Part shown: positions 6,398-39,310 of the stretch, piece after piece
How positions within the stretch are numbered: position 1 is the first letter of the stretch
Layout: each line of letters begins with the position of its first letter
From: Eledone cirrhosa
Lineage: Eukaryota
Direction: 5' to 3'
Length of the DNA stretch: 64,000 bases
NCBI GenBank assembly: GCA_964016885.1
Contig: OZ024740.1
Span: forward strand, 294,004,001 to 294,068,000
Position numbers and translations under genes: made by a program
The notes under the pieces: model-generated
The model's input: the letters and a program-made list of their open reading frames with translations, nothing else
What the model was told of the DNA's origin: nothing
Database searches by the model: none

Positions 6398-6663
6398 TTG
6401 TACAATGATTGTTTCAGCTGTTTTAGAAAAGTTTTTGGTCTTGCTGATTAGATTATAATATTCCAGGTTAACCATCCCTCAAACATTTGGATTTTATAAT
6501 ATACAAAGGTGTATATATGGTAAAGTTAGGACTAACATACTTAATGTTATGAGCATCATAAAATACAACTAGAAATAATTATGTGATGAAGACATGACAA
6601 TATTAGTCAATAATTAATATTATTTTAATCATTTCAGCAAGTACCGGTGATACTTCTAAAAAT

Positions 6664-6689
6664 GTTTTGGTCCTATTAGACCTCATCAG
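6664..6689 (-). ncRNA. Degenerate hammerhead ribozyme core
   Basis: Minus strand CTGATGA-GGTC-TAATAG-GACC-AAAAC (GAAA changed to AAAA at a CpG), enclosed by 12-bp inverted repeat TTCAGCAAGTAC/GTACTTGCTGAA (6633-6719). Confidence 0.5.
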
Positions 6690-7028
6690 CAAAGCTTAGA
6701 CTATACTGTACTTGCTGAAGTGGCAATGAGAGTACATGAGCAAAGATTAAAAATTAATACAGTGAACCCTCATTAAACCAGATCTTGTTAAGTGAAATAT
6801 CAGATAAACTGGATGAAATCCGAGTTAACCCTTTAGCATTTAAACCGGTCATATCTGGATAGAATTCTCTCCCCACTTTCTGTTCAAACGTTATAACTGG
6901 CCCCTCATACCGACATTAAGGTATTTTTCTCAATATAAATAATATCAATATCTCATAGACTCGATATTATGTGAGATAATTATGTAAAATAATGCCTTTA
7001 CCACAAAAATACAATAGTAAATATAGAG

Positions 7029-7598
7029 CAGGGGTGTGCAATATATTCCATTGGCAGACCACTTTTGAACATGGGAACAACTTTAGGGCCATTAATATTT
7101 ATTAAGCAGTATTCCAAAGATTTACCACAACTTCTTTCCATAACATTGAACTGGGAAAATATAACACACATAACCCTATCAGTGAAGCCCTTTAGTATAA
7201 GTCAACTAACCCTATCAGTGAAGCCCTTTAGTATAAGTCAACTAACCTTATCAGTGAAGCCCTTTAGTATAAGTCAACTAACCCTATCAGTGAAGCCCTT
7301 TAGTATAAGTCAACTCACCCTATCAGTGAAGCCCTTTAGTATAAGTCAACTCACCCTATCAGTGAAGCCCTTTAGTATAAGTCAACTCACCCTATCAGTG
7401 AAGCCCTTTAGTATAAGTCAACTAACCCTATCAGTGAAGCCCTTTAGTATAAGACAACTAACAGAAAATTGTATTATAGTTACGAAAAAAATTCTTAATA
7501 AGCCTACAAGGTAAAAATTAAAAACGGTCATTGCGGGCCACTCTGACTGGTCTGGCAGGCCAGATTGTAGCCCATGGGCCGCCTGTTGCACGCCCCTG
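7029..7598. mobile_element. hAT (Charlie-like) MITE
   Basis: TIRs CAGGGGTGTGCAA / TTGCACGCCCCTG; perfect 8-bp TSD ATATAGAG (7021-7028, 7599-7606). Confidence 0.9.
7171..7460. repeat. 36-bp minisatellite, about 8 copies, inside the hAT MITE
   Basis: TAACCCTATCAGTGAAGCCCTTTAGTATAAGTCAAC repeated. Confidence 0.95.
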
Positions 7599-8044
7599 AT
7601 ATAGAGTAATGTAAATGCTAAAGAGTTAACAGAGTTATAGACTTCTGTGCCATCTTTGAGTATCAGTGTTGAAGGGGCATATATTCTGGATATGTTAGGT
7701 GAGCACTACACATGCACTGAAGATGGTGAATTTATCATAAATATACAGCACATCCAATAATATAATCATGAATCATAATGGGAAACTATTTTTTCTGTCC
7801 CCTGTTATGAAATATTGTGGCATTTGTTGTCAACTAGCATTTTGCACATCACAGCTTGTATCTTGTTATGTATGAAGCAGATGGTGTGATAATGGGAGAG
7901 ACCAAATTAAGATCTAAAGACGAGCAACATTTCAAAAGTATACATCCTGTTTAAGAAATCAACCATTTCTTTCTAGCACTCATATTTTCTGTTTACTATC
8001 TAACCCTTTAATTCCCCTGTTATTCTAAACAATATTGTATGGGT

Positions 8045-8235
8045 GGCAGTGGATTGGCTGTATTGAGTTAGATAAAATGCTATTGTGGTATCTGTTCTGG
8101 CTTACACTCTGAGTTCAAATCCCGCTGAGGTCAACTTCGCCTTTCATCCCTCCAGGGTCAATAAAATAAAGTACCAGTCAAGTACTGGGGTTAATTTAAT
8201 TAGTTTTATCCTTCCCCAAAAATTTGCTGGCCATG
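8045..8235 (+). mobile_element. tRNA/Meta-like SINE copy
   Basis: GAGTTCAAATCCC..GCCTTTCATCCCTCCAGGGTCAATAAAATAAAGTACCAG. Confidence 0.7.
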
Positions 8236-9957
8236 TTCATTATCATCATCACCGATTTTACATCCATTTTTCCATGCTTGCATGGATCAGACAGGTCATC
8301 TGTGTCGAGAGACAAATCTGGCCAGGATTGACCTTGCCGTTACCTTGTTCGGAAGGGACTGGAAATTTGGCTGGTGTTTTTACAGCTAGATGCCCTTCCT
8401 AATACCAACCACATTTTAGAAATCAATATTAGCTGCTTAGACAATCGGGATAAAATGAAGACCCTTCCACCCCTATTAATATGGCTTAACAACGGTTCAC
8501 TGTATATTGAAAAATGGAGTAAATATGTGTCTTTATCAATAAATAGACTAAAAACTATTTTCTATTTCTTCGTCAATATTTTTCTGAAATCTGTTTAATA
8601 TATAAAGACAAACATCACAGATAAATGACAACTGTAATATATAAAACATAGCACTGCATTTTTTTTCTCATATGTTGGTCATGTGATATGTCAACAATTC
8701 TTTCCATTTGGTTTCTTGGTAAACATTGGGTACTTGTTCACAGTATCTACTGTTTCTTGGTAACATCAATTATCTGGACTTTCTTCTTTTTTCCATCTCT
8801 CCTAATAGCAGTCTCTACCTCTTCTTTCTTTCTCCATCAATAATCTCTCACTTGCTCTCTCTTTAAATGTTTAATTGTTACCATTTTAATCTTTGAACCT
8901 TTCATCAAACCTTTCCTCTTTTACAGTTCCTGAAACACACTATACACACATACAAACACACACTACACATACACGCACACCACATACACTACACATACAC
9001 ACAACACACTCTCCACATTCATACTATACTACACATACACTACACTATATACACACATGATATTATATAATATAAATATCTTGAGTATGTTAAGTATATT
9101 TTACATTAGATATGATGTGAGAAGCCAGAGAATAAGACCCGTCCCACCCTTGCAAGCAGGGAAAAGCGGACGTATGATGATGATGATGATGATCTTTATT
9201 GTATGACATCACTGTTAATTTGATGAATAAAAAGAAATTAGAAATATCTTAAAAACTCAAATAATTGTAAACTATTTTATTGCAGGTAAATTTGAGTATG
9301 TTAAGTATATTTTACATTAGATATGATGTGAGAAGCCAGCGACCCCAGTCTGCCTGAGGGGCCTGTATTTCTGACTAAGTACTGACTTGGTTTGTAACAA
9401 CCCATTCAATCCTTGCTAGCAGGGAAAACGAACATTAAAGGATGACACACACAAACACTTGTACACACACACACACACACATACACACATACATACAAAC
9501 ATATATATATATATATATATTATAACATCCTTTTTACATTTGTTTCTACTTATATGTGAGAGAGAGAGAGAGAGAGAGGGAGAGATAGTGTGTGTGTTGT
9601 AAACAGTTTTAAAATTATATATTTCTGTGGATTAACTTAAATTTTGACTAATGATGTCTCCTTTGGGGATGCCGTCTATAGAAAAGGATGTGAAAAAACA
9701 ATTTCTAGCTCTTTCCAGATATTTATTCTCATAAATAAGATGAAAATAATGTTTAGAAAAATATTAATTTCTATTTAGATACAAATTAAAAATGAAAAAG
9801 TTAGTTTGGAAGAATTTTTTTTAAAAATTACATAGACTCGCCACTACCACAAAAAAAAGTGCAAATTTGAATCACCTTAATGTACTACTATGTTTAATTA
9901 TACAGTACATTCTACATTATGTACATAATCCATTTTGTGTATGTAAACATAACCATT

Positions 9958-10155
9958 GTTTTAGAATTGAAATAGAAACAGAAGTATTGCTGTAACATTG
10001 ACTACATACTATAGTCTAAAACTCACTGAATGGAAAAAGATGGGTATCACACACACCATTTTTTCCCGTTCAGTGGCTTTATATGCCCCCTTATTAGACT
10101 ATATTATGTAGTCAATGTTACGACGATACTTCTATTTCTATTTCAATTCTAAAAC
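9958..10155. repeat. Long imperfect inverted repeat (fold-back)
   Basis: About 60-bp outer arms GTTTTAGAATTGAAATAGAAA.. / ..TTTCTATTTCAATTCTAAAAC plus inner arms CACTGAATGGAAAAA / TTTTTCCCGTTCAGTG. Confidence 0.85.
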
Positions 10156-12214: not shown

Positions 12215-12219
12215 CATAC

Positions 12220-12481: not shown

Positions 12482-12856
12482 TCAAGCTAACTGTACATCT
12501 CCACATAGACTTGAAGATGAGTCTTTCTTACAACTTTCACACAATTTGCTCTCTGATGAATGTTCATAAATATTTTCAATGTAAATTACTCTGTTATATG
12601 CTCTCCATCTATGACATAAATTCACATACATTTTACACTGGACATACATGAAAACAAGGCCCCCAGTGAAACCAATGGCTACAACAATAATTTTTGTCCA
12701 AAATGGCCACTCAAGGACACCTCGCCTCATTTCTTCAGTGGTTCGATCAATAAGCACATAGAGAGACCATACAACACATGTTATGGCTACAATATGGAAT
12801 GTCACTGAACAGATAATCTTTCTTTTCTCAACTGAAGTCATCTGTAGTCTCTCCCA
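12482..12856 (-). CDS. MARCH8: MARCH1/8-type E3 ubiquitin ligase, last coding exon (two TM helices and C-tail)
   Basis: [71 protein letters not shown]; acceptor (T)n-gcAG at 12858-12857; TGA at 12484-12482; phase 0. Confidence 0.93.
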
Positions 12857-14110
12857 CTGCAAAAAGAAAAAAAAATAATAGTAGACAAAAGAAAAAACAA
12901 AAAAAAAAACCCAGAATTTTATATTTAATTTTTCAACTACACTTTACCGAATTTATGAATATTATTATCCAAGGTTGGATAACAAGATGGATAACATCCA
13001 TAAACTCAGTTTCATTTGGGGATCCAGCAGGATCATTTGAAGATGGTTGTTTCTGATAGGACTCTCAGAAAGGCATGTCTGAGAACTCTGTCCACATGAC
13101 AGTAAAGGACCTACTCCTTTAGTGATTTCAGTCATTAGACTATGGCTACACTAGGGTTTAGTTGATTATATCAACCCAGTACATATGTCACCAATCTCTA
13201 TTTTGCAGAACTACTAAGTTATTGGACATAAACAGACAGCACCAGCTGTTAAATGATTTAGATGTAAACAAAAACACATACATACTCACATTATAAACTT
13301 TTGTATAGCTTCTGTCTACCATATTTCACTTATAAGGCATTGATTGACATGAAGCTACAGTAAAAGAAATATCCAAGGTGCAACTTAACTCAAACCATAT
13401 GGTTTGTAAAGCCAACTTCTTAACCATATTGCTATACTACTGTTGTTGTATAGCTCTGACCAATCAGACCTATAATCAAAGGCATTCTATATCCAAACAT
13501 CTTGACTTTTATTCAGACACAGATATCCTTTGTTTTTTTAACATTGCATTATCATATTTTTAATAGAAGATACTGCCTATTGTTTTCAAATAGTTTTGAA
13601 AATAATCAAAGATTTAAAAGAATTATTTATCTGGAAATTAGAGTTGGCTTAACAAAGGTTCTGACATAAAATTATGATAGAAGGTTTCTAGATAAATATA
13701 AACACTTTGAAATAAACAGCTTAATATCATGAAACCAGGGCAGTTTCACGCAGTTTGGCATCAAAAGGTAATTTAACTAACTTTCTTATTATTAATCTGG
13801 TTTTTAAAACATAACTTAATAATGCTCCTTATATAAAACTATGATAGAGGTTTTTTTAGATAAATATAAATAATTGAAAATGAGAGGTTTTTATACCAAA
13901 GAATGCTTATAGTATAATTCTTATGATGTAGCCACCAGTTTTGATTTGAAAAAAACAACACTATTTATTAGTGTTAAAATATATGCAAGTGATTCATAAA
14001 GGTTGGCTTGAATATTTGCACCCTTCAAGTAAGGTGTATAACTGTTGCTCCATTCAGATTTACTTTATAAAAGCGATACTTACAACATGTTTTATTATTC
14101 CTAGATAGCA

Positions 14111-15886: not shown

Positions 15887-16162
15887 CTCTTGGAATGGCT
15901 TTACTTTCGTTGTCATGATGAATTCAAATTTACATAGTTCACATGATTTAGTATCTGCACTTTTAATCCATTTTTGTAGACAAGCTTGGTGCACCCATCG
16001 CAAACTGCCAGAACATATGCATGGCGCTACAAGGGGAGCTTCTGTTTCTCCTTCACAGTGACAAATGCGGCATATGTCCATATTACTTGAGTACTTTGAA
16101 ACATGGGAATCACAACGTTCTGGAGGGAAGATAGGTGTTGAACTGACATGTTGTACTGATTC
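15887..16162 (-). CDS. MARCH8: MARCH1/8-type E3 ligase, RING-CH (C4HC3) exon
   Basis: [53 protein letters not shown]; acceptor ttgcAG at 16164-16163, donor GTGAGA at 15886; 276 nt, phase 0/0; joins KPFQE|WERLQMT. Confidence 0.93.
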
Positions 16163-16875
16163 CTGCAATATAAATGTCATTAATAGAGAATGATATTTTA
16201 CACTGAATGGTTAATTAAAGAGCAATCATAAACTAGCGACCATACAAATGCGACATTTGATATTCGATAGTTATCATTTATTGTCACTGATTATAGCTGG
16301 GAGAAAGTTCAGGGAAGGAGTGAACATAGAAAGATTGTCCATTACAACATAACTATTTGAATGGCATTGACCTACCTGCTAGAAATAGCAGTCAAAGCTT
16401 CCTGAAATTACATCCTACCATCTTAAAAGAAAAAGGAGACATTTAATAATGTCATCCTAGACCAAAGGTTCTCAGCGGGGGGCATATGCACCCCCAGGGG
16501 GCGTTTGGGAGCAAGGGAGCATTGGGGGGGGGGGGGCGTTTGGAGCTTTGGAGTGCACTGGAAGGCTCTTTATTTTGGTAAGTTTTATAAGCCATATTTG
16601 TATGTCTTTGACACTGTGAATGCATTTGAATGAGCGTGCAGACAGCATAACTATGGTCTGACTGCAGGTGTTCAGGCGTGTTTAGACATTAACCGCCAAT
16701 TAAGATCCTAACAATGGAAAAATCCACAGTCAACTGGGTCAAGGACACTTCAACCGCAGCCAGTTAGAATCTTGTCTTTCCTTCACCGATAACAATGTAT
16801 TTCAAGTCTGAAATTATTGACTCAACCGTAACGAGTTAACACTATGTAGATCTATTTTATTTCCTATTGTATAAA

Positions 16876-17155
16876 TCATCATCATCACCGTTTTACGTCC
16901 GTTCTTCCACGCTAGCATGGGTTAGACGGGTTGTCCTGTTGTGGGCAGTGTCTGGTCGGCTGACCATGCCTTGCTCATACAGGAACTGATCTGGCTTGAT
17001 TTCTACAGCTGGATGCCCTTCCTAACACCAACCTCATTTACAGTGAGTGCTGGGTGCTTTTTCGTGGCGCCTACACGTCCACTTTACAGTGTGGGCTGGG
17101 TGCTTTTTTGCCGTGGCACCTCCACGACCACCTTGCGGTGGGGGGAGTGGGGGCA
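16876..17155 (-). mobile_element. RTE/SINE tail module
   Basis: (CAT)n then CCACGCTAGCATGGG..GGATGCCCTTCCTAACACCAACC. Confidence 0.75.
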
Positions 17156-17208
17156 TATTATAATATTACAAATAAAAAAAAATAATAAAAAAACACAGAA
17201 GCGGGTAG

Positions 17209-17638
17209 CACACACATCTAGGGCCACATACAACACATAATCAGATAATACACACATCTAGGACCACATACAACACATAAGCAGGTAATACACACATCTA
17301 GGACCACATACAACACATAAGCAGGTAATACACACATCTAGGACCACATGCAACACATAAGGAGGTAGCACACACATCTAGGACCACATACAACACACAG
17401 GCAAGTAATACATACATTTAGGACCACATACAACACATAAGCAGGTAATACAAACATCTAGGACCACATACAACACATAATCAGGTAATACAAACATCTA
17501 GGACCACATACAACACATAATCAGGTAATACATACATCTAGGACCACATGCAATACATAAGCAGGTAATACGTACATCTAGGACTACCTACAACACACAG
17601 GCAGGTAATACATACATCTAGGACCAAATACAACACAT
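17209..17638. repeat. 40-bp minisatellite, about 11 copies
   Basis: CACACATCTAGGACCACATACAACACATAAGCAGGTAATA. Confidence 0.95.
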
Positions 17639-17639
17639 T

Positions 17640-18693
17640 GCTACAGACGACGCAAGAGCAATGGTCGGCCAACATAAGGGTTTCGTCACTCTCCTGAAGA
17701 GAGAAAATCTATCTGTATTTGTTGTTCATTGTGTCATTCATCGACAACACTTGGCTGTGAAGAAACTCAGCAAGCCACTGAGCAAGTCCTTGCAGGTGGC
17801 CCTTGATGTCATCAATTTTATCAAACGGTATTTCCTCAATGAACGAATTTTCCGGCAACTGTGCCAAAATAATGACAGAGAATTTGTCAAGCTGCTCCTT
17901 CATAATGAAGTGAGGTGGCTTTCAAAGGGCAAGTGCCTTACTCACTTCTCTGAACTGTTCGACTCTATCATTGAGTTTCTGCGAGGACGCAACACAGAAC
18001 TGTACAAGAAAACCCTCGATGTGAGGCAAAACTGCACCTACCTCACCGACATCATCGACAAATGCATTAGCATCATTTTGGCTTTGCAGAGGAAGAAGAT
18101 CATCTTGCTTAAAGCAAGGAATGCTGTGAAAACATTCCTGGCCAAATTGAATGTCATCGAAAGGAATCTTTGTTGACGGGAATTCTATAATTTTCCTAGT
18201 GTCGCCAATGTTCAAAACATTGTAAGCGATGACTAACTCCAAATTTATACCGCTCACCTCCGTGCGCTACAAGACAACATGAGAGAACGGTTTGTCGACC
18301 TTTTGCCGATGAACATCCCAACGTGGGTAGCAGATCCCTTCATAGCTAACGTCGATGATTTGGACGTTATATTTCAGGAAGAATTCACTGAACTTCAAGC
18401 AGATGACATGATCAAAATTAGATTTCCCAAAATAGGTGAACCCCTTTTTTGGATGCAAGAGGAAATTCAGCGTCGATTTCCACACCTACATGCAGAGGCT
18501 AAGAGATTTTGCTCTGACTTTTCCAAGCTCATACTTAGTCACGAGGAGGTTTGGTGCTGTTTCCAGACTGCACAGTAAGGCTCACAACCGCTACAATGTA
18601 ATTACATGTGGAGATCTCCGGCTACATCTTACAAAAATCCAGCCTGACGTCAAAGAGTTAGCTAGACTCCATAAAGTTCAAGGGTCCCATTGA
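17640..18693 (+). pseudogene. Disrupted hAT transposase (Buster/Charlie, ZBED5/8-like); probable left end of the element near 16462
   Basis: TDDARAMVG, HCVIHRQHLA (CxxH), EVRWLSKG, then FPSSYLV.RRFGAV..RYNV..GDLRLHLTKIQPD; stop at 18174-18176 and frameshifts; Charlie-like terminus CAAAGGTTCTCAGC at 16462. Confidence 0.88.
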
Positions 18694-25708: not shown

Positions 25709-27140
25709 CCCTTTAGTATTTACATTACTCTATATACAAGGGGGGATCAAAAAGTTCGCGGAATTTTTCAGAAAATAATCTATTTTTCCAAAAATATGAT
25801 TTACCTTCAATTTATTTTTCTACAGAGTTGCCATCCAGATCAATACACTTCACAAGGCGATGCTTCCAGCTTCGTAAGCCGTCTCTAAAGAAAGTTGAAG
25901 GCCTTGTTCGAAGCCATGTGTTGGCAGTGTTTTTAGCTTCTTCAACACCACTAAAACGGGTTCCTTTTAGCATTTCCTTGAGTTTTGGAAAGAGGAAAAA
26001 GTCTGATGGGACTAAATCTATAAGGCGGGTGAGAAAGCACTTCCCATTGAAATTCTCGAAGAACTTCTTTTGCAACCCGCGCAGAATGCGCTGGTGCATT
26101 GTCATGGTGAAACAAGATCCCACCATGAAGTTTCCCTTTTCATTTCTTCACTAAAACATTTGCATAGTAAGCTCCTGTCACAGTTCTTTGACCTTCAAGA
26201 TAATCTATTAGTATCACCCCATCTGAATCCCAGAAAATGGTGGCCATCACTTTTTGATCCGATTTTTGAGATTTGAACTTGATTGGCCCCAATGATCCAC
26301 GTGGAAGCCACTGTTTTGACTGCTGTTTGGATTCAGGATCATACTGGTAGATCCAGGTTTCATCTCCGGTGATGATTTTGGTCAGGAAATGCTCTTCATC
26401 AACTTCAATTTTGTTTAATATTGCCAAAGACAGATCACTTCGAAGAATCAGCTGATGAGGGCGCAACGCTTTTGGGACCCATCGCGCTGAGAGCTTGCTT
26501 AGTCCAAAATTATCATGCAGAATTGAATTTGCCAAACCATATGAAATGTCTAGGGACTTAGCTAACTGATTAACTGTTATTCTTTGATCTTCTTCAATTA
26601 AAGTCTGAGCAGCCTCAACGTTTTGGTCATTTTTTGATGTCCTGGTCTTCCACTGCGATGGTCGTCTTCAAGGTCGTCTCTCCCTTGTTTGAATCGCTGA
26701 ATCCACTTGTAGACAGCAGTTTTCTTTGGAGTAGTAGTATCGTAAACTTTAACTAAAGCCTCCATAATCTGTGTCCCTTTCCATTTGAGTTTCACCAGAA
26801 ACTTGATATTCGATCTTATCTCAAAATAACTATTTTCCATTGTTCCAAAAAGAGTGTCAGTACTGTAAAATAGTCCGCGCATAACTGACTGCAAGTGACT
26901 AATAGCAAGGTAAACACCCAGTGACAATGTTCTGACATGTTTAATATTGTTTTAACCTGATTTTTTTCTTGCTACGATAAAATTCCGCAAACTTTTTGAT
27001 CCCCCCTCGTATACTACTGTATTTTCACAGTAAAAGCTTTACCTCACATAATTATATCACATAATCTACGAGATTTTGTTATATATTTTGAGAACAATAC
27101 CTTAATGTCAATATGAGCAGCCAGTTACAATGCTAAAGGG
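25709..27140. mobile_element. TTAA MITE family A carrying a nested mariner
   Basis: TTAA|CCCTTTAGTATT ... AATGCTAAAGGG|TTAA. Confidence 0.8.
25737..27009 (-). mobile_element. Full-length (1273 bp) mariner transposon with frameshifted transposase
   Basis: About 31-bp TIRs CAAGGGGGGATCAAAAAGTTCGCGGAATTTT (2 mismatches), TA flanks; ORF pieces with HTH, WVPKAL, ITGDETWIYQYDPESKQQSKQW, DLVPSDFFLF. Confidence 0.93.
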
Positions 27141-27144
27141 TTAA

Positions 27145-27373
27145 CCTTTTTGTGACCATATTTCTAACAAAAATATATTGCTTTGTATTTATATTATTAA
27201 AATAATCAATGATTATGAGAGGTTTTGTGAAGTAACTTTCAAAGTGGTAATAAAGAATAATACCTACTTACTGAAATCTAATTAGCTGTCATGTGATAAT
27301 TAGATTTCAGTCCAATAGTTAAATTTAAACACGTTAAATATAGCCAGTTTTGGACAGGTTGGTGTTTAAAGGG
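27145..27373. mobile_element. TTAA MITE family B
   Basis: Shares TTAA 27141-27144 with the family A element; ends AAAGGG|TTAA. Confidence 0.65.
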
Positions 27374-27459
27374 TTAAAGAAAATAAGAAACAAGTGGGGC
27401 TATTTTCAATATCTAACCTCTCCCACTGCCATTATAATCTGAAGAATATTTGATCTAAT

Positions 27460-27652
27460 ATTGGTTTCTGATTTAGGCACAATGCCAACAATTTTGGGGA
27501 AAGGGAAAGTCGATTAAATAAATCCCATGCATTACTGGTACAAGGCAAAGCTAATCTTGAGAGGATTTGAACTTAGATCGTAAAGGGGCGAAACCCTATG
27601 CCATAAAGCATGTTGACCAATGCTCTACCGATACTGCCAATCCACCACCCTT
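27460..27652 (-). mobile_element. tRNA/Meta-like SINE
   Basis: Reverse complement of the 2330-2550 family. Confidence 0.7.
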
Positions 27653-28043
27653 GTTTGATCCAATATTAATAAAGAAAAAAATTAATGTCAGTATTTGAAT
27701 ACATTTTGCACTGCTACCTATTATAGCCACTAATATCTGAAAGATGGTAGTATAAAATATTAGACTTAGTGATCTACCAAGTCATCAGTTTCTGTAGAAA
27801 GTTTGAAAAATCTTGTAGTAAGCTGATAGGCAGTAGTTGTTAAACTTATAATTATAAGAGGTGTTAATTGTATATTTAAATAACAGAAAGGAGCGGGGGG
27901 GGGGGGGGACTTGGTTTTTCCAAGAAAAATATCAGTAGTTAATTAACATCCTTCTTTATCCAAGCAAGAGAGAGACAACTCTGAATGTTTGGGCCTTACT
28001 AGGCTTTGTCTGTAACAGTATATCCTTCAACATTGCTTGTTGG

Positions 28044-28388
28044 TCATCATCATCATCATTTTATTTTACGTCCGCTTTTTCCCTGCTTGCAAGGGTGGGA
28101 CGGTAACTGATTTTGGCTTGATTTCTACAGCTGGATGCCCTTCCTAACACCAACCTCATTTACAGTGAGTGCTGGGTGCTTTTTTTGCTGTGGCACCTAC
28201 ACAACCACTTTGCAGTGGAATGATATGGACCCCAGTCCCTATCATCTCATTTCTACAGCTGAGTAAACTGGAGCAATGTGAAATAAAGTGTCTTGCTCAA
28301 GGAAACAACACATCACCCGGTCTGAGAATTGAACTCACAACCTTTCGATTGCAAGGCGAATGCTCTAACCACTAAGCCATGTGCCTCC
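28044..28388 (-). mobile_element. Young tRNA-CORE-RTE-tail SINE, inverted relative to 19088 and 22989
   Basis: Reverse complement match over about 330 bp. Confidence 0.85.
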
Positions 28389-29467
28389 ATTGGTATTATA
28401 GTAAATGTTATTTGAACTACCACAACCAACAGCCACAGGTAACAAAAGGCCTGGTTTTAACTTCTATAAATAAATCAAAGATCCTTCAGCTGAACTTATC
28501 AATAACTTCCGTATCTGATGCTTTAAAGTTCAAATGTTACAATAATTTATTTATAGTCAAGAACTGAGTCATTGGAAAATACACAAGATATAAATCTTGT
28601 ACTATAAATTCACTAATACATTTTAAATAGAGCCATGTTCAACCAGCTCAGAATTTAGAAAGGAACAAATCTTAGATAAAAGCTTCCACAATGTAAGTAT
28701 TTTAACTAACTAGGTCCTTTACGATGCCAATAACTGCAAATTATAATTGAACTGTATTTGAAAGTCTAGAGTTTAAAAGTTCTACAGGATACAAGGAAAT
28801 AATATTCTGAATGAAGCCTGGTTTAGATTCTATGCTAAAGCCTATTATTCCCATTTAGTCCTTTGCCACCATGGTCCTCTCCTGCATACTTGATCCTTTC
28901 TCACCTTTGTCTCTCCCTCATTCACATCCTTAACTCCCTCTTCCTCAACATACTATATCAAAATGGAAAGCCCCTCCAAAGTACTATACCAGATGCCATT
29001 TCCTCGTGCTTTCTCTCTCCCCCCACCAACCCAACACATACTCTCTCCCCACTCCCCCACAACTTGCACCACCAAATTAATCCTTGAATTCCCTGTTCCT
29101 TGCCCAGCCATACCAGCCAGGAAAAGTTGAGCACACCTGACAATACCTAAGGTGTCACTTACTGTAAGGCTACCCCCCCCCCCTCGCTCCATGGACTAGC
29201 AACAGGTAGCCTGCACTCCACTCTCATCACTTTCCTGCCAGCCTAACTAAGGATACAAGTGCCCTAGTGTTGAAATGTGGTAGTGCTGGTTCAACAATAA
29301 AATGAGTTCAAAATGCAAATGAGCAAGACACATTCATCTGACCTGACTAGTCTCAGAACATGACAACCTGTCTAACTTATGCAAGTATGGGAAATAGATG
29401 TAAAATGGTGATGATGATAATATATACACACATACACACTTATCCTTATTATGGGTAACTGGTGAGA

Positions 29468-29571
29468 CTTGTTACTCTGGAGTATCACCTATGTACTCAC
29501 AAGATCATCAGACAAGACTTTTCTTGTCTGACGATTCTCTGAGTATACAGGTGAAACTCCAGACTATCATG
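29468..29571. ncRNA. Back-to-back inverted pair of type-I hammerhead-like motifs
   Basis: Minus: CTTGT-CTGATGA-stem II-GATA-CTC-CA-GAG-TA-ACAAG; plus: CTTGT-CTGACGA-stem II-GAAA-CTC-CA-GAC-TA; about 42-bp palindromic arms. Confidence 0.6.
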
Positions 29572-30028
29572 GCTCATCATTTAGTCATAATAAAGAAAAT
29601 TATTAAACTCTACTTCGGTATTGAGAACTCATTCTTGCATATGTCAACATCACATGGATATATATTGGATATATTATATGCAAACATATTTATATATATA
29701 TATATAAATTAATTATATGCAGTCTTTGTTACACACTCTGTATTTATGAATATATAACTTTATTATACACTTTGGCTGCTTGCGCACTTCCTACTAAATA
29801 TCTTAATTACCAACACGTGTGCAATTATATGCAAATTAGTACACCCATTTCAGAATGATACTAGGAGCAAATGGGTTATATGAGGTTTGTCCCAAAAGTA
29901 AGGGAACTGATGTTTTAGTTAAATATATATTACACATACATGAAATTACAACAGAGAAGGTGTGGTAAGATACCAGGTGGACCATGACACATCAAAGTAA
30001 TCGATACTTAGGGTAGTAGAGTGGGTAG

Positions 30029-30176
30029 TAGGAAAAGACTCAGGACCCCAACGGCCGAGCTCCGGTCGTTTCGACAACTAGATCCGAACTAAGCCACCAC
30101 TATACTGGTGGCATAGTTCAGATCTTGCTGTCGAAACGGCCGGAGCTCGGCCATCGGGATCCTGACTCTTTTCCTA
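30029..30176. repeat. GC-rich 148-bp fold-back hairpin (palindromic MITE-like)
   Basis: 71-bp arms with 9 mismatches and a 6-nt loop CTATAC; TA at both ends. Confidence 0.85.
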
Positions 30177-30181
30177 TATAC

Positions 30182-30237
<56 letters not shown>

Positions 30238-30328
30238 GTCAAGTTGTAGCTCTTTGTGTTTTCTTTTGTTTATCTTTGTTAATTTCTTGTAAAGTATTCT
30301 AAAAGACATCCCAGAAATATGACAATCA

Positions 30329-31650
30329 ACATGTAGAGGATGGTAAACTTTAGAACTGTCATAAAACTACATGTTAGAGGATGGTAAACTGTGTAGTGCA
30401 GTAATGTTGCTACATGTAGAGGATGGTAAACTGTGTAGTACAGTAAGGATGCTACATGTAGAGGATGGTAAACTGTGTAGTACAGTAATGATGCTACATG
30501 TAGAGGATGGTAAACTGTGTAGTACAGTAATGATGCTACATGTAGAAGATGGTAAACTGTAGTACAGTAATGATGCTACATGTAGAGGATGGTAAACTAT
30601 GTAGTACAGTAGTGATGCTACATGTAGAGGGTGGTAAACTGTGTAGTACAGTAATGATGCTACATGTAGAAGATGGTAAACTGTAGTACAGTAATGTTGC
30701 TACATGTAGAGGATGGTAAACTGTGTAGTACAGTAATGATGCTACATGTAGAGGATGGTAAACTGTGTAGTACAGTAATGTTGCTATATGTAGAGGATGG
30801 TAAACTATGTAGTACAGTAGTGATGCTACATGTAGAGGGTGGTAAACTGTAGTACAGTAATGTTGCTACATGTAGAAGATGGTAAACTGTAGTACAGTAA
30901 TGTTGCTATATGTAGAGGATGGTAAACTGTGTAGTACAGTAGTGATGCTACATGTAGAGGGTGGTAAACTGTAGTACAGTAATGTTGCTACATGTAGAAG
31001 ATGGTAAACTGTAGTACAGTAATGATGCTACATGTAGAGGATGGTAAACTGTGTAGTACAGTAATGATGCTACATGTAGAGGATGGTAAACTGTGTAGTA
31101 CAGTAATGATGCTACATGTAGAAGATGGTAAACTGTAGTACAGTAATGTTGCTATATGTAGAGGATGGTAAACTGTGTAGTACAGTAATGATGCTACATG
31201 TAGAGGGTGGTAAACTGTGTAGTACAGTAATGATGCTACATGTAGAGGGTGGTAAACTGTGTAGTACAGTAATGTTGCTATATGTAGAGGATGGTAAACT
31301 GTGTAGTACAGTAATGATGCTATATGTAGAGGATGGTAAACTGTGTAGTACAGTAATGATGCTACATGTAGAGGGTGGTAAACTGTAGTACAGTAATGTT
31401 GCTATATGTAAGAGAATGGTAAATTGTGTAGTACAGTAATGATGCTACATGTAGAGGATGGTAAACTGTGTAGTACAGTAATGATGCTACATGTAGAAGA
31501 TTGTAAACTGTGTAGTACAGTAATGATGCTACATGTAGAAGATTGTAAACTGTGTAGTACAGTAATGATGCTACGTGTAGAAGATGGTAAACTGTGTAGT
31601 ACAGTAATGATGCTACATGTAAAGGATGATGCTACATGTAAAGGATGATG
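30329..31650. repeat. 42/40-bp minisatellite, about 31 copies
   Basis: GCTACATGTAGAGGATGGTAAACTG(TG)TAGTACAGTAATGAT. Confidence 0.95.
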
Positions 31651-31867
31651 CTACACTGCCACATGTTAAGTTCAATCTCAGTAAACAGTTATTGATAAGA
31701 TTGATCAATAAATATACTTATAATGTTTCATTACGTCACCTCCAGCACTCACCATCCCTTCTATAGTTGAAATTCAGGTCATAAGTAGCCAGCAATATGG
31801 TAACCAGTATAGAATCTTAGTAATAATTCTGCTGCTGCTGGTCATGATGATGATGATAGTGGTAATA

Positions 31868-32385
31868 ATAATAATTGTTTCTACTTTTGGCACAAGGCCA
31901 GCAATTACCCAGTGCATTACTGGTACTTTATTTTATCGACCCCGTAAGGATGAAAAGCAAAGTTAACCTCGGTGGGATTTGAACTCAGAATGGCAAGGGC
32001 CATAACTCTATGCGTCAAAGCATGGCGTCCGACCCTCTACCGATACTGCCAATTATAATAATTGTTTCTACTTTTGGCACAAGGCCAGCAATTACCCAGT
32101 ACATTACTGGTACTTTATTTTATCGACCTCGTAATGATGAAAGGCAAAGTTAACCTCAGCGGGATTTGAACTCAGATCGTAAAGGGACGTTACTGTGCTG
32201 GAAAGCATGTCTGACCCTCTACCGATACTGCCAATTCACCGCCTATTATAATAATTGTTTCTACTTTAGGCACAAGGCCAGCAATTACCCAGTACATTAC
32301 TGGTACTTTATTTTATCGACCCCGTAAGGATGAAAGGCAAAGTTAACTTCGGCGGGATTTGAACTCAGATTGTAAAGGGACGTAA
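31868..32385 (-). mobile_element. Tandem trimer of an internally deleted tRNA/Meta-like SINE
   Basis: Three head-to-tail units each starting ATAATTGTTTCTACTTT.GGCACAAGGCCAGCAATTACCCAGT. Confidence 0.85.
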
Positions 32386-32401
32386 ATAATGATAGTAGTA
32401 T

Positions 32402-33170
32402 ATCATCATCATCACCATTTTATGTCCATTCTTCCACGCTAGCATGGGTTAGACAAGTTGTCCTGTTGTGGGCAATGCCAGGTCAGGTGATCATGTCTTG
32501 CTCATACAGAACTGATTTTAGCCTGGTTTCTACAGTTGGATGCCCTTCCTAACACCAACCTCATTTACAGTAAGTACTGGATGATTTTTACCGTGGCACT
32601 TACACGACCACTTTACAATGTGGACTGGAGATTTTTTGTTGACACCTACATGACCACTTTACAGTGGGAAGGGGGTGGGGGCATATTGTCTATACGCTTC
32701 AGCTTTGGCTTGTACCTGTGGGAAGTTGGGTCTTCTGTATTACTGCTTAACGCCAGAGGTCACGGTCCTGTGTCATTGCCTTTGAGAGGTGCAATTGGGC
32801 AAGATCAGCTTTTATCACCTCATCCCAGGTCTTCTTGGGTCTCCCCACTCCAAGCTTTCCATCGACTTTTAGCGCTCTGCACCTTTTTATGCAGCTTTCA
32901 TCCTTCATACGCATCACATGTCCATACCAGTGTAATATCCTCTCCTGCACACAGCATTTGACTTCTCTTACGCCTAGTCTCTCTCTCAATTCGTTTATGC
33001 TTTGCCGTTCACGGATATTACTATTTCCCATCCATTGGAGCATGCAAGCTTCATTTCTTTCTAATCCACGCAAGTCTTCTGCACACAATGCCCAGGTCTC
33101 ACTACCATGCAACATTGCTGTTCGTATGCACACATACAGTCTACCTTTCATTTTGAGGGAAAATACTTTT
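32402..33170 (-). mobile_element. RTE LINE 3' end with 3' UTR and (GAT)n tail
   Basis: ORF 32747-33151 LHGSETW..WYGHVMRM..GRPKKTWDEVI; same family as 1-990. Confidence 0.9.
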
Positions 33171-34859
33171 GTTATAATAACATTAATATCAAAGCCAACA
33201 AATGAGCCCCTATGTAGTTGCTAAAACAGCTAGAAATAGTATCCAAATCTCCTTCAATCCACATCCCACCATCTTAATCCTTTAGTAACTAATCTGACCA
33301 AAATCAGCCCTGGTTCTATAGAATAAAGCCACTCATTTTAAAGGTTTCCAATTTAGATTAAAATTTTCCAACATAATTTTATATAAGAACCTTATATTAC
33401 ATTACTATCTTAGTAATGAAATAATTAATAATTTTAGGAAATCCATGAAAATTATTCATTACATAATTAAAACATTGATGTAATGTGCTTGGAAAAAAAA
33501 AGAAGGGTTGGATATTCAGAGCTGAAAGGTCTTTTATGAGAGTTGACCTGAATATATAAACATCATCACCATCAACATCATTTAATGACATTTTCCCTGC
33601 TAGCAAGGATCAAATGGGACAAACAATAACCACAATGACAGTAATAATAGTATCATTACTGTGTAATGTCACTGATAGCACTGTAGTTGAGAAAGATGGA
33701 TATTTTTCATTTGTGATTCACTACTTGATATTTCAGATTGTACAAAACAGAATTTCAAGATTTGGGTCTTCAACAATATCTTATCTACAATTGAAACTTT
33801 TGTTGGTGTTTGAGGGGCTTTTTTTTTTCTCTCTTTCTTTCCACTGAATGATGAATCAGAGAGTGCTTTCAGGATCAAAGAGAACCACATAGATGTAAGG
33901 GGTATACGGAGAGCAAGGAGGGAAAAATGAAAGAAAGAAGGAAGGAAGGAAAGAAAGAATTATTGAATGAATGAAATAAAAAAAAAAAAGAATGGAAGGG
34001 TGAGAGGTATTTAAAATGGAGTACAGGACTGTCTCCTTGTTTAGTAATATGAAAGACTGGGCAGAGAAGTGAGCCAATATGAAAGACAATAATGGTTGAC
34101 AGTAAAGCTCTAAATTTATGATAGAAACAGGAGGTCTGTATAGCCAAAAATAACTATCAAAATAAAATAATTTAATAAGAGGTCAATGTCAACTGCTGAC
34201 TATGAAATCTAAATAATGAAACCATTAGCTCACTCATTTCAAACAGCTACCTTCTCACTAAGTTGGAATATATCCAGGCATGATTAGCCTGGTATCTATA
34301 TCTATTAGGTAATAAACCAATGCTACCACATCAATACAGAAAATAAATGGCATAAACATGCACTAAATCTGGTTTGTTGGCATGGAGTTGCTCACCAACC
34401 ATTCCAATCTCAAGGCCCTAGATATGTTGTCTGCTTTTCTCTAGCATTCTCAGTGACATTTGCTCTTTTGAACTAGCAGACATAGTCTCACTCATTTTTT
34501 TCCTAGCATTGCTATAGTGACACCTGTTCCTTCAAAATGGTTGGTTGGTCATGTATTACATGACCTAAGCCTATCCAATTCCTTTGTACCTCATGCTCCT
34601 CTCAACATAATACTGGACAAACTCCCACCTTCTCAGATCCTGCACAAACAACTTTTCCTTAGAATGTTATCTCTCAGGAATTCCTCTCTGTCCAGGTAAT
34701 TCCTGCCATCATTGACTTACAATTATTCAGTCACATGGATGTCACCTGCCTTGGAAGGACTGAAGAGGCCTTGGGCAAAATTCCTGCCTCAAAATCAAAC
34801 CATCAAAACAAAAACAACAAATATTCTAAGACATACCTGTCCAAAATGAAATTCACATA

Positions 34860-34935
34860 CTCTTGGGTCCCAAATAATAGGGGGGGGGGGGGGAATAAGC
34901 AAGGAGGTGGGAGAAGATTATTCGAGACCCGAGAG
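34860..34935. mobile_element. 76-bp mini-MITE (TA-flanked)
   Basis: TA|CTCTTGGGTCCCAAATAAT ... ATTATTCGAGACCCGAGAG|TA. Confidence 0.65.
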
Positions 34936-36589
34936 TATATCATAATCAAAGGCTTTAAGGAAAACACGTACACTGGTAATACAGTCATCTAAAGCGCTTC
35001 AGACATCACTTAGAAACATGTTGAAAAGTTTTCAGAATGAAAGGAGTTTGAAACATTAGATGTGAGAATAAAAATGATATCAAAGATATCAAAAATATCC
35101 ATCAGTTCCAAAGATGGGTCCTCCATCAGTTCCAATGATATCCATTCAGTAAACTTATCTTAACAAAGCTTCTTACATAAAATTACAATGGAAGCTTTCT
35201 AGATAAATATAAAACACTTTATAATAAACAGTTTCATAGCAGAGGGTGTTTCAGGCAGTTTGGTATTGAAAAAGAGTTTTCTACAAACCCTTAACTAAAT
35301 CCCAAAGCTGAATCAGTGTGTATTATACATTATATGAACACACACACAAATATATGCATATATTCTAGTTTCTAGTTCCGTAACTCCTGAGTGGGTCGTA
35401 GGGGCACCACAGTGACATACAGCGTTTCTAGGGTATTTTTTAAAACCTGGTGGAACCCATCGCCTCTCCAGGTTTGAATACAGATTTCTTCCAAAGAAGG
35501 ATAGAGAGAATGAGACAATGGAAGTAAGAAAGAATCAACTCTAGTATAAGACTGGTACATTTTTATCGACCTTGAATTGATGAAAGAGTACATATATATA
35601 TTCTCACACTTCAAAGTGGTTATGAAGGTGTCATGACAAATAGCACCAGCCCACATTGTAAAGTGGCCGTATAGGTGTCACGACAAAAACCACCCAGTAC
35701 ACACTGTAAATGTGGTTGGTGTTAGGAAGAACATCCAGCCGTAGAAACCAAACCAGAACCAGTTCTGTATGAGCAAGACACGCTCACCTGACTCGACTTG
35801 CCTCAAATGGGACAACTTGTCTAACCCATGTTAGCGTGGAAAATAGACGCTAAACGATTATGATGATATATATATATATATATATAATCATCATCATCAT
35901 CGTTTAACGTCTATCTTCCATGATGATGATGTATATATATATATATTGTTTATTAATTTACTGGTTTCAGTCATTGGACTGTAGCCAAACTGAGGCACCA
36001 ACTTCAAATGTTTAGCTGATCATATCAACCTGAGTATTTATATTCAAGACTGGTTTTGGCAAAACTACTTTTATTATCAAAATATGAAGATTAAATGAAA
36101 AAATGGTGGGTCTTTAAATACTTTCATTACTGAATGTAAAGATTATATTTTAAAATATAACACGTTGATTTGTTCCTTACATCATCATCATCATCATCAT
36201 TGTTTAATGCCTGTTTTTTATGTTTGTGTGAGTTGAATGGCCTGTCACATTCTGAGGCTAGACAGGTCAGATAACTGTATCTTGTTCATACTTTGGCATA
36301 GTGTCTACAGCTGGATGCCTTTCCTAATGCCAACTACTTCATGCCATATACCAGGTTTGTTTACTCTTTGCACCACCACTACCATCTGACAGGGTGGACT
36401 GGATAATTTTGTCGTAGTACCAGCACTACCATTTTACAGTGTGGGCTGGATGCTTTTTTTCGTGGTACCAGCAGTGTTACTTTACAGTGTGGCTGGATGC
36501 TTTTTTCATGATACCAGCAGTACCACTTTACAGCATGGGCTAAATGTATTTTATTGTGGCTCTCTCTCTCTATATATATATATATATAT

Positions 36590-37190
36590 GAACAACAAAA
36601 CAAACGAATTGCGAGCGAAACTGGGCATAAGAGGGATCAGATGCAGTGTGCAGAAGAGGAAAATGTGTCGGTATGGACATATGATGTGTATGAAAGATGA
36701 CAGCTGAATAAAAAGGTGCTGGTGGCTCAAGGTTGATAGAAGCTATGGTGTAGGAAGACCTAGAAAGACTTGGGATGAGGTGATAAAAGCTGACCTTGCA
36801 CAATTACACCTCTCAAAAGCAATGACACAGGAACAAGATCTCTGATGTTATGCAATAATACAAAGTCCCGTCTTCCCATGTGCACAGGTTGAAGCATACA
36901 TTTAATAAGCACCACTTTCTCCTCCCATGTCCTCAACCCTAGATGTACCTCTCCAATCCCCATGCACCTCCTCCACACCAGCTCCCAGTCCACACTGTAA
37001 AGTGGTTGTGTGTCACAGTCAACACTGTAAATGTGGCAGGGATTAAGAAGGGCATCCAGCTGTAGAAACCAAGCCAGGAACAGTTCTGTATGAGCAAGAC
37101 ATGGCCATCTGATCTGGCTTGACCCACAATGGGAAAACTCATCTAACCAATGCTAGCATGGAAAAATGGATGTTAAATGATAATGACGAT
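36590..37190 (+). mobile_element. 5'-truncated RTE LINE 3' end
   Basis: ELRAKLGIRGIRCSVQ..YGHMM..GRPRKTWDEVI, 3' UTR and GAT tail. Confidence 0.85.
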
Positions 37191-37310
37191 GATAAATATA
37201 TTTATATATATATGTGTGTGTGTGTGTTGGAATTTCGTATTTCTAAAGAAATACGGTATGTTTATAAATAAACATTTAGAAAGCCATAGCTATGCAAAAA
37301 CACTGGCAGC

Positions 37311-37329
37311 TATCGCCCCCTGGCGGTGT
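37311..37329 (-). promoter_or_regulatory. CTCF-like motif
   Basis: Minus strand ACACCGCCAGGGGGCGATA resembles the CCRSYAGRKGGC core. Confidence 0.45.
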
Positions 37330-37350
37330 CCAGCAGCAGCAAGGGGGACA

Positions 37351-37394
37351 ATCGTTGATGCATTTTAAACTGAACTGGTTCTCATCAGGATGAT
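37351..37394 (-). ncRNA. CpG-decayed minimal type-I hammerhead motif
   Basis: ATCATC-CTGATGA-GAAC-CAGTTCA-GTTT-AAAA-TGCA-TC-AACGAT; palindromic stem III ATGCAT. Confidence 0.5.
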
Positions 37395-37434
37395 CCTCCC
37401 GTTCTTGCAACTGCTGGACTTTGAAAACAAGCGA

Positions 37435-37484
<50 letters not shown>

Positions 37485-38341
37485 TCATACACACTTCTTT
37501 GGTCGCCAGTAAGGCTGTTTGATTTTCATTAACATAAATTTGGTTATGATTTTCTGACATAAGCAATTTTTCTTTTTGTGATGAGTGCACAAAATTCTAT
37601 ATTTAAATGTCAAACATTATACTATAGAAATGAGATCAAAATGTGACATTTTGTAAATGTTTTGCTGCTATTGAAAGCTACACTTTTTATCTAATCAATG
37701 CAAGGCAACCTTGTTATTAATGCTATCATCTTAATGTAAAGAATCTAAAACTTGTTATTATCCACAATCATTATCATCATTATTTTGATGTTTTTCTCAG
37801 CTTATATGGGTAGGAGAAATCCTCCTCTCCAGCGCAACATCCTCCACTTGTCTCTTTTGTTTGTCATCTATTTCAATAAGTTCTACATTTTAATATCAAC
37901 TTCAGTTTTCACCACTTCTGCCTAATTCTATCATATTTATTTATCTATTGCTGAAGACTTTATAAAAATGTGGATAAAATTGAGTTATTGTGAAGTGTTT
38001 AACCATAAAATGTATTTATGTGAGAATGACTTAAATATCTGCTCCAGGGACAATGCATTTTACATTTAAGCTTATGGGATTGCAAGAGTAAATAATTCAG
38101 AGTGCTTAAAGAGTTAATGCCATAAAATTCAGACACACACCAATATAAAAATATATTTGGTATTTAAAAGATATAATGTAAAATTTACCAACACATACAC
38201 ACACACCTTTTCTGTGGGGCATGCACCCTATACTCAAAATCACTGATTTACAACTTTTCAAATATGATGAAGATAGTAACTTTTCTCATTAATTGATATT
38301 AATGATGTTTTTACACTTTAGAAAACAATCATTTCTATTAA

Positions 38342-38548
38342 CCCTTTAGCATTTACATTACTCTATATTTACTATTATATTTTCATGGCAAAGGTTTTAT
38401 CTCACTTAATATCGAATCTATGAGATTTTGATATTATTTATTTTAGAACAATACCTTAACACCAGTATGAATGGCCAGTTATGGCTGATTTGAACAAAAA
38501 GAGGTGAGCAAATTCTGGCCAGATTTGGCTGGTTTAAATGCTAAAGGG
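38342..38548. mobile_element. TTAA MITE family A
   Basis: TTAA|CCCTTTAGCATTT ... AAATGCTAAAGGG|TTGA. Confidence 0.85.
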
Positions 38549-38792
38549 TTGAATAAAAATGTTTTTTTTAATTAGTGTTGTTTCCAATTCTATAAAAAAT
38601 ATCTGAATTAAATAAACAGAGAAGTATATTTATATATTTAAGAGATAGATTCTTTTTTTCTGTCCATCATACAAATAGCAGTCATGTCATAAGGGTCAAC
38701 GCAGATTGTGTTGTAGTTAACTTTTGGTTCCTCTCACATAAAACAAAGTGCCTATCTTTTTAGCATTTTATACATTTCAGTCTACCATATAT

Positions 38793-38824
<32 letters not shown>

Positions 38825-38832
<8 letters not shown>

Positions 38833-39310
38833 ATACTTTGGGAGGGTCATGTTGCCAATAAGAAACACATGCACCAGTTGCTTTCACTTCAATTTATTAT
38901 AATAAATTTATAAATTTATAAATTTCTGGTTGGTTGGTTGGTTGGTTCCACAACCAGATAGTTGTTTATATATTGTCATAGTTCTTTCGTCACACACTCT
39001 GTGAAACAAAATGGCGTAGGACAGAACAAAGGAGAGGCACAGAAACAAAGAAAGGAATACCCAGTCACTGAAGAGGTCACAGAGTGTGTGACGAAAGAAC
39101 TATGACAATATATAAACAACTATCTGGTTGTGGAACCAACCAACCAACCAGAAATTTATAAATTTATAAATTTATTATAATAAATTGAAGTGAAAGCAAC
39201 TGGTGCGTGTGTTTCTTATTGGCAACATGACCCTCCCAAAGTATAACAATATCGGTTTCAACACACGATTTCAGATAAAGAATCTTGCTAAACAAATTCA
39301 GAAACGAAAT
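38825..39310 (+). mobile_element. Penelope-like non-autonomous element with a near-perfect inverted duplication, sitting in (TA)n
   Basis: Arms 38825-39004 and 39077-39252 differ by one substitution and one TTGG unit; 72-nt spacer; contains the hammerhead motif. Confidence 0.65.
39064..39106 (+). ncRNA. Minimal type-I hammerhead ribozyme
   Basis: GTCA-CTGAAGA-G-GTCACA-GAGTG-TGTGAC-GAAA-G-AA-C-TA-TGAC: stem I GTCA/TGAC, 6-bp stem II, 2-bp stem III, CUA cleavage triplet (cut after 39102). Confidence 0.7.

What the first reader, a model, noticed from the sequence alone, without database searches (positions are those of the whole stretch)
6633..39106. Recurrent, sequence-unrelated hammerhead relics across one locus
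Motifs at 6664-6689 (-), 29468-29571 (both strands), 37351-37394 (-) and 39064-39106 (+), with weaker traces at 29238-29290 and 34756-34785, have different stems but the same core. Lesions repeatedly hit the CpG at C11.1-G12 (CGAAA to CAAAA, TAAAA or TGAAA). This suggests several small ribozyme-bearing retroelement families being inactivated by gene-body methylation decay. It is the best candidate here for a poorly described system.
Basis: inference. Interest (0 to 1): 0.75.

Follow-up and report, generated by a model that had tools for sequence, protein, structure and literature searches.

The report
Penelope-type hammerhead repeats in octopus intron
Four of the six spots are copies of four octopus repeat families that carry a small, predicted self-cutting RNA motif: one family is the tail of a Penelope-type jumping gene, the others likely use the same copying machinery, and the C-to-T wear seen in two copies looks like ordinary ageing of the whole repeat rather than targeted shut-down of the motif.

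Summary
The four main sites are minimal type I hammerhead motifs in four unrelated multi-copy families of an Octopus genome; three lie in a 92-kb MARCHF8 intron. Family A (39064) is the 3' end of a Penelope-like element (RT plus GIY-YIG directly upstream in longer copies), intact here, with 16,112 exact cores genome-wide. Family C (37351) is an ORF-less 342-nt tandem unit (retrozyme-like). B and D are old, short families with Penelope-type inverted insertions. The two weak traces fail: 29238 has no core in its family, 34756 found no second copy. CpG lesions at C11.1-G12 hit 2 of 5 complete cores; B's TGAAA is its family state. In C, CpG decay is 7.8-fold, element-wide, and stronger in CpG-poor surroundings; the core is not hit harder. 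The locus is not special: 24 intact motifs in 400 kb sampled across the genome (shuffles 0.25), about 10^5 genome-wide. Sense-strand depletion did not replicate (12 sense-only, 16 antisense-only). This is a known class (Cervera and de la Pena 2014, 2020), and the scan has noted such octopus elements before on other DNA.

The parts
39003..39310 (+). Family A, direct copy: 5'-truncated 3' end (pLTR) of a Penelope-like element, with about 57 nt of extra tail at this end, next to a TA-rich run
39064..39106 (+). Intact minimal type I hammerhead of family A: helix I 39064-67/39103-06, core 39068-74, helix II, G12 at 39093, predicted cut after 39102; antisense to MARCHF8
38826..39004 (-). Family A, inverted copy, cut off inside helix II (no CUGAAGA); ends in a (TA)n run
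37226..37443 (-). Family C: part of a 342-nt ORF-less tandem unit (retrozyme-like); hammerhead 37394-37351 with both CpG transitions (37367, 37366), so G12 is lost; sense to MARCHF8
   Evidence: lesion present in read contigs at single-copy depth
29443..29650 (.). Family B: fold-back pair of two short hammerhead-bearing 3' ends; edges approximate
29523..29571 (+). Family B plus arm: core letters intact (29528-34, 29553-56), helices worn; U at 11.1 is the family state
29468..29516 (-). Family B minus arm: core broken at A14 (not a CpG change)
6530..6730 (-). Family D: old repeat (70-87% identity to other copies); hammerhead core 6689-6665 with G12 to A at 6668; 5.8 kb past the MARCHF8 stop codon; edges approximate
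29238..29290 (+). Rejected trace: part of a multi-copy repeat whose majority has no hammerhead core
34756..34785 (+). Rejected trace: core-like letters, no second copy found, likely chance
15887..16165 (-). MARCHF8 coding exon (RINGv)
12482..12859 (-). MARCHF8 last coding exon
16166..64000 (-). MARCHF8 intron that holds A, B and C; it runs on to position 108192 in window numbering (92 kb), where the first coding exon lies; inferred from the O. bimaculoides protein and GT/AG ends, no RNA evidence

Best explanation
The four main motifs are minimal type I hammerhead sequences inside short, dispersed retroelement copies: family A is the 3' end of a protein-coding Penelope-like element, family C is an ORF-less 342-nt tandem unit, and B and D are older short families that were likely copied by the same Penelope-type machinery. 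Mechanism. [quoted passage not shown] (2, inferred) Its enzyme primes at AT-rich or (TA)n DNA, copies the RNA from the 3' end and usually stops early, often adding an inverted second copy; what is left is the hammerhead-bearing stump, so hammerheads pile up without their ORFs. (3, inferred) ORF-less units such as C borrow this enzyme, probably from a circular or multimeric RNA. (4, inferred from PMC4209133 and PMC11167929) With a helix III of 2-4 bp and a palindromic loop, single copies cut poorly without a dimer partner or the element's protein, so the host tolerates them on either strand. (5, shown as a pattern, cause inferred) Old copies lose CpGs across their whole length, faster in CpG-poor and so probably methylated domains such as this half of the MARCHF8 intron; loss of G12 is a by-product in a minority of already immobile copies.
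For: RT-like ORF with YVDD motif, CX4CxxC linker and GIY-YIG (PF01541, E 4e-5, over cut-off) ends directly upstream of the family A hammerhead in L025/L091, on both arms of an inverted pair; its best relative is an Octopus vulgaris RT-domain protein (69%). 16,112 exact A cores, control 0. 17 of 54 aligned C copies (one is the reference) run across the unit junction, natural tandem spacing 342 nt, longest ATG ORF 67 aa. Inverted pairs in A, B, C and D loci. Loop III is palindromic in C and D, near-palindromic in A and B. 24 strict motifs in 400 kb against 0.25 in shuffles, in at least 10 sequence groups. CpG transitions 287 of 1229 against 294 of 9787 at other sites in family C; loss 110 of 187 in CpG-poor against 73 of 185 in CpG-rich flanks. 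Intact sense-strand motifs stand in introns: 4 in this intron, 22 in 971 kb of gene bodies.
Against: No ORF was found attached to B, C or D, so their link to Penelope enzymes rests on insertion shape only. Pfam gave no RT family for the family A ORF; its RT identity rests on the motif and on database names. Cleavage, expression and circles were not tested. Methylation was not measured; CpG o/e is a proxy, and CpG loss is still 39% in CpG-rich flanks. In the first gene set, single-orientation insertions leaned antisense (13 against 5, p 0.096) while SINEs (15:17) and LINE ORFs (29:27) did not, so a mild cost of sense copies is not excluded.
Confidence: 0.82

Rival explanations
1. One reading: intronic hammerheads harm the host pre-mRNA, and gene-body methylation plus selection disarm them at C11.1-G12, leaving intact copies mainly antisense.
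For: Both CpG-broken cores of the window (C, D) are on the MARCHF8 strand and the intact one is antisense; in this intron 4 of 8 sense copies are broken or truncated and 0 of 7 antisense copies of these families (hand count). First gene set leaned antisense (motifs 15:31; insertions 5:13). Intact insertions are rarer in CpG-poor gene bins (13.7 against 104.5 per Mb). CpG loss follows flank CpG depletion.
Against: Pre-stated replication in four ion-channel genes went the other way (7 sense-only, 3 antisense-only, 1 both; pooled 12:16, p 0.57). The core CpG is not lost more than other CpGs. Only 2 of 16 mutated cores in genes and sampled stretches had G12 to A (library biased to young families). 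Many families have no CpG at this place (15 of 24 sampled motifs). The low density in CpG-poor bins is matched by scarce (TA)n runs (2.9 against 14.6 per 10 kb).
Confidence: 0.1
2. B, C and D are retrozymes that spread through circular RNA by enzymes other than those of Penelope elements (for example the abundant RTE LINEs).
For: C is an ORF-less tandem unit of typical retrozyme size; no Penelope ORF is attached to B, C or D; RTE LINEs are present in the window.
Against: Inverted 5'-truncated pairs and ends at microsatellites match the layout described for Penelope insertions (PMC8557442, passages); bioRxiv 2026.07.22.740005 argues for a Penelope origin of animal retrozymes (parts 1-2 of 5 read). 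No poly(A) or LINE-like tail was seen at C or B ends.
Confidence: 0.06
3. The motifs are chance matches in an AT-rich, repeat-rich window.
For: Core + helix II alone is near chance in the window; no Rfam hit; two of six sites did fail.
Against: Family majorities restore full cores and paired helices; 16,112 and 162 exact cores with control 0; 24 against 0.25 in sampled DNA.
Confidence: 0.02

Closest known systems
Minimal hammerheads of metazoan Penelope-like elements (Cervera and de la Pena 2014, PMC4209133; parts 1-2 of 4 read)
   Same: Type I, helix III tiny with palindromic loop, unpaired base after A9, short helix I, many unrelated consensus families per genome, mostly single or as opposite-strand pairs 100-700 bp apart, few in full elements.
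   Different: The parts read name no cephalopod. Their 'remarkable' counts are about 4,000 and 9,000 per genome; one octopus family alone has 16,112 exact cores.
EN+ Penelope-like elements with C-terminal GIY-YIG, Neptune/Nematis type (Craig et al. 2021, PMC8557442; passages)
   Same: Family A: RT, CX4CxxC linker, GIY-YIG, hammerhead near the 3' end, 5' truncation, inverted copy, tail at one end, microsatellite targets.
   Different: Clade not placed on a tree; tail here about 57 nt against the 30-40 nt described.
Metazoan non-LTR retrozymes (Cervera and de la Pena 2020, PMC7229834, passages and section 15; Li, Clavereau and Pollet, bioRxiv 10.64898/2026.07.22.740005, parts 1-2 of 5)
   Same: Family C: 342-nt ORF-less head-to-tail unit, 37% GC, type I hammerhead (mussel 350-390, axolotl 330/350 nt). 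Family B has a U-U mismatch at the base of helix II like axolotl HHR_Amex2.
   Different: C was seen only as monomers, dimers and inverted pairs, and is aged; circles and cleavage were not tested.
Poseidon element of Anolis (PMC11167929; passages)
   Same: pLTR hammerhead, AT-rich target preference, genomic tail.
   Different: There cleavage was shown to need the element's protein; untested here.

Membership tests
Minimal type I hammerhead ribozyme | Core CUGANGA, GAAA, UH in order | tested here: met
   Family majorities A-D; window copies A and B plus arm intact, C, D and B minus arm broken
Minimal type I hammerhead ribozyme | Helices I and II paired, helix I open | tested here: met
   centroid fold of A shows both helices
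Minimal type I hammerhead ribozyme | Short helix III with palindromic loop (dimer form) | tested here: met
   C and D palindromic, A and B near-palindromic
Minimal type I hammerhead ribozyme | Self-cleavage | not testable with these tools
   Needs an in vitro assay
Minimal type I hammerhead ribozyme | Match to an Rfam hammerhead model | tested here: not met
   No hammerhead family among 70 matches at E<=5
Penelope-like element (family A) | RT followed by GIY-YIG endonuclease in one element | tested here: met
   frames are interrupted in the copies read
Penelope-like element (family A) | Hammerhead in the terminal repeat; partial tandem or inverted repeats; tail; microsatellite target | tested here: met
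   L018 tandem, L091 inverted ORFs, window pair with a one-sided tail
Penelope-like element (family A) | RT groups with PLE clades on a tree | not tested
   No named PLE references were at hand
Penelope-like element (families B, D) | Attached RT/GIY-YIG ORF | tested here: inconclusive
   None attached in the B and D loci held (about 41 and 23 loci, some duplicated, 1.5 kb flanks); old, short copies
Non-LTR retrozyme (family C) | Head-to-tail unit of 150-450 nt, no ORF, type I hammerhead | tested here: met
   342-nt unit, 17 of 54 copies cross the junction, longest ATG ORF 67 aa
Non-LTR retrozyme (family C) | Expressed as self-cleaved linear and circular RNA | not testable with these tools
   No RNA run was available
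Hammerhead (sites 29238 and 34756) | Core present in a multi-copy family | tested here: not met

The most novel reading that the evidence does not exclude
This octopus genome carries on the order of 10^5 intact minimal hammerheads (about 25-70 per Mb, roughly ten times the density of the axolotl count of 126,247 in 28 Gb, though descriptors differ), so most long pre-mRNAs hold several sense-strand cores, some in tandem. They would form a genome-wide set of latent cut sites, silent as monomers but switched on by dimer pairing or by Penelope protein when the elements are expressed, for example in neurons or germ line, with methylated housekeeping introns being slowly cleared of them.
Probability: 0.12. 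Interest if true: 0.7.

Novelty: new member of a known kind. Interest (0 to 1): 0.3.

Why it matters
As it stands, this adds octopus families to a described class and corrects the idea of a special ribozyme-decay system. The useful remainder is scale. With about 10^5 intact motifs, families of very different age, and methylation limited to some gene bodies, Octopus is a good genome in which to ask what Penelope hammerheads do (PMC8557442 calls their function unclear): whether single intronic copies ever cut pre-mRNA, and whether the host selects against them. The small test here (971 kb of gene bodies) found no consistent sense-strand cost.

Tried and rejected
Rfam scan: no hammerhead family. 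Single-copy folding: no z-score support. Core + helix II scan in the window: near chance. Sites 29238 and 34756: rejected. Search for Penelope ORFs attached to B, C, D: none; nearby ORF pieces in L057, L109, L124, L132, L136 and L202 were not continuous with them. Pfam on the family A RT: no family. Antisense bias: seen in MARCHF8 plus 18 myosin genes (motifs 15:31, which include a six-motif array and two minisatellite false hits; a hand count by insertion gave 5-6 against 18-19; the scripted count, after dropping 10 motifs with no homologue elsewhere in my library, gave 5:13), then not replicated in four ion-channel genes (7:3, 2 motifs dropped); only 320 of 600 kb planned were examined. Depletion from CpG-poor gene bins: confounded with (TA)n density and absent in the 40 sampled stretches (60 against 50 per Mb). 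RNA: no RNA holder listed, which is no evidence on expression. Read depth over family A is about 10^5 times single-copy depth, but the tool says this is no copy number. Paper searches with no result: hammerhead + intron + antisense + orientation bias + retrotransposon; hammerhead + CpG + deamination + Penelope. Hammerhead + octopus + ribozyme gave no octopus survey; PMC13282606 lists Penelope elements in O. vulgaris with no mention of ribozymes in the main text; PMC6962438 reports 235 Rfam hammerhead hits in giant squid. Supplements were not read; they may list cephalopod motifs.
Full report
Setting. The window lies in a 3.0-Gb genome (G000:C1:294004001-294068000). Two minus-strand exons encode MARCHF8, 99% identical over the RINGv part to the Octopus bimaculoides protein; the species was not determined. 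The first coding exon lies at 108193-108309 in window numbering, with GT/AG ends. Sites A (39064), B (29468) and C (37351) therefore lie in one 92-kb intron, and D (6664) lies 5.8 kb past the stop codon. The gene model comes from protein homology only.

Observation. Judged singly they are weak: Rfam gives no hammerhead, core + helix II is near chance (4 relaxed sites, shuffle mean 1.6), and folding z-scores are flat. Each of the four is a dispersed repeat, and the family alignments restore a full minimal type I hammerhead with unrelated stems, a 2-4 bp helix III and a palindromic or near-palindromic loop. Exact core patterns with the CpG left free gave 16,112 (A), 21 (B), 162 (C) and 3 (D) matches, with reversed-pattern controls of 0. 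The weak traces fail: the 29238 repeat has no core in its majority and 34756 found only itself.

What the families are. In L025/L091 the family A hammerhead follows an ORF with a YVDD motif, a CX4CxxC linker and a GIY-YIG domain (Pfam E 4e-5), on both arms of an inverted insertion. The window copy is a 5'-truncated end plus an inverted, shorter copy, with a tail on one side and TA-rich runs at both ends; this is the layout given for Penelope-like elements in PMC8557442 (passages). Family C has a natural tandem spacing of 342 nt; 17 of 54 aligned copies (one the reference) cross the unit junction, and the unit has no long ORF, as in non-LTR retrozymes (PMC7229834, passages and section 15). B and D are older, short and often inverted; no ORF was found attached, so their tie to Penelope enzymes is inferred from insertion shape.

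CpG decay. Two of five complete cores carry CpG-type lesions (C, D). The C lesion is present in read contigs at single-copy depth (probably the same sample as the assembly). B's U11.1 is the family state (15 TG, 0 CA; p 6e-5), and a U-U mismatch at the base of helix II is described for a cleaving axolotl motif. In family C, transitions run at 287 of 1229 CpG positions against 294 of 9787 others (7.8-fold). The core CpG survives in 32 of 54 copies, the other ten CpGs in 273 of 557 (p 0.16). Loss tracks flank CpG depletion (rho -0.52, 38 loci). Hand counts of the first 100 listed matches: C 70 CG, 17 TG, 9 CA, 2 TA, 2 other, so 11 lose G12 to A; A 96 CG (all from the start of one chromosome). 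Both counts lean to young copies because the other letters had to match. Octopus methylation sits on a subset of gene bodies (PMC9476566, passages), and the window half of the intron is CpG-poor (o/e 0.24-0.39) while its 5' half is not (0.49-0.88). Methylation-driven decay is thus a fair inference, but it is element-wide ageing.

Is the locus special? No. Forty evenly spaced 10-kb stretches hold 24 strict motifs against 0.25 in 8 shuffles, and allowing G12 to A adds none; they fall into at least 10 sequence groups. Scaled up this gives 1.2-3.1 x 10^5 (bootstrap on 28 hits of a slightly wider descriptor). The sample holds 5 exact family A cores where the genome count predicts 2.2, so a calibrated figure is nearer 0.8 x 10^5. 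The window has only one intact motif; its worn look reflects a domain with few young insertions and few (TA)n targets.

Sense against antisense. The MARCHF8 intron has 4 intact sense and 6 intact antisense motifs. In MARCHF8 plus 18 myosin genes (651 kb), single-orientation insertions were 5 sense, 13 antisense and 8 on both strands (p 0.096), with unbiased SINE and LINE controls. A replication stated beforehand in four ion-channel genes (320 kb) gave 7, 3 and 1. Pooled, 12 against 16 (p 0.57).

Mechanism and comparison. Penelope-type copying from the RNA 3' end with early stops leaves hammerhead-bearing stumps and inverted pairs (inferred). PMC4209133 (parts 1-2 of 4) describes this pattern across animals and found no monomer cleavage for a minimal motif; PMC11167929 (passages) found that a Poseidon hammerhead cuts only with the element's protein. 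Weak monomer activity would explain why intact sense copies persist. No cleavage, expression or circle was tested here. Earlier notes of this scan describe similar octopus elements; my reading was recorded before I saw them.

Verdict. Real motifs at four of six sites; new octopus members of a known kind; CpG decay real but incidental; interest 0.3, mostly for the scale and the testable question of intronic cutting.

Noticed in passing
family B loci L198-L218; window 29510-29528: Most family B copies begin right at the 5' strand of helix I and then fold back into an inverted copy. This suggests an RNA 5' end or a template switch at the ribozyme edge; unexplained.
   Followed up: partly
window 39003-39016; loci L001-L030: 25 of 58 family A 5' ends fall 64-69 nt upstream of the core, at a motif that resembles a YY1 site (resemblance recalled, not tested); possibly an internal start site. 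The loci were chosen by likeness to the window copy, so the share is biased.
   Followed up: partly
L251 (G000:C3:169285801-169295800): Array of six intact hammerheads at 310-nt spacing plus an inverted copy in a myosin intron; a young retrozyme-like family.
   Followed up: no
window numbering 77171-106523 (L139-L142): Nine more intact hammerheads of at least six families in the CpG-richer 5' half of the same MARCHF8 intron, with Penelope ORF pieces in L140-L141.
   Followed up: partly
L158-L197: Penelope ORF pieces in about 12 of 40 sampled 10-kb stretches: these elements are a large part of this genome.
   Followed up: no
window 61358-63678 (-): LINE with endonuclease-like, RT and PHD-like parts; further LINE pieces at 94-453, 23997-25228, 32747-33220, 39989-40423 and 43466-43942.
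   Followed up: no
window 19097 (+), 22998 (+), 28379 (-): Three near-identical tRNA-headed SINEs; used as an orientation control.
   Followed up: partly
window 44724-46786, 30287-31679, 11369-12351: 48-nt and 42-nt minisatellites and a 1-kb (TA/CA)n tract.
   Followed up: no
window 17622-18578 (+), 25812-26951 (-): ORF pieces that look like hAT and mariner transposases (naming recalled, Pfam gave no hit for 17622-18173).
   Followed up: no
hammerheads listed: Many families have AATAAA within 60 nt downstream of the cut site, a possible second source of orientation effects in introns.
   Followed up: partly
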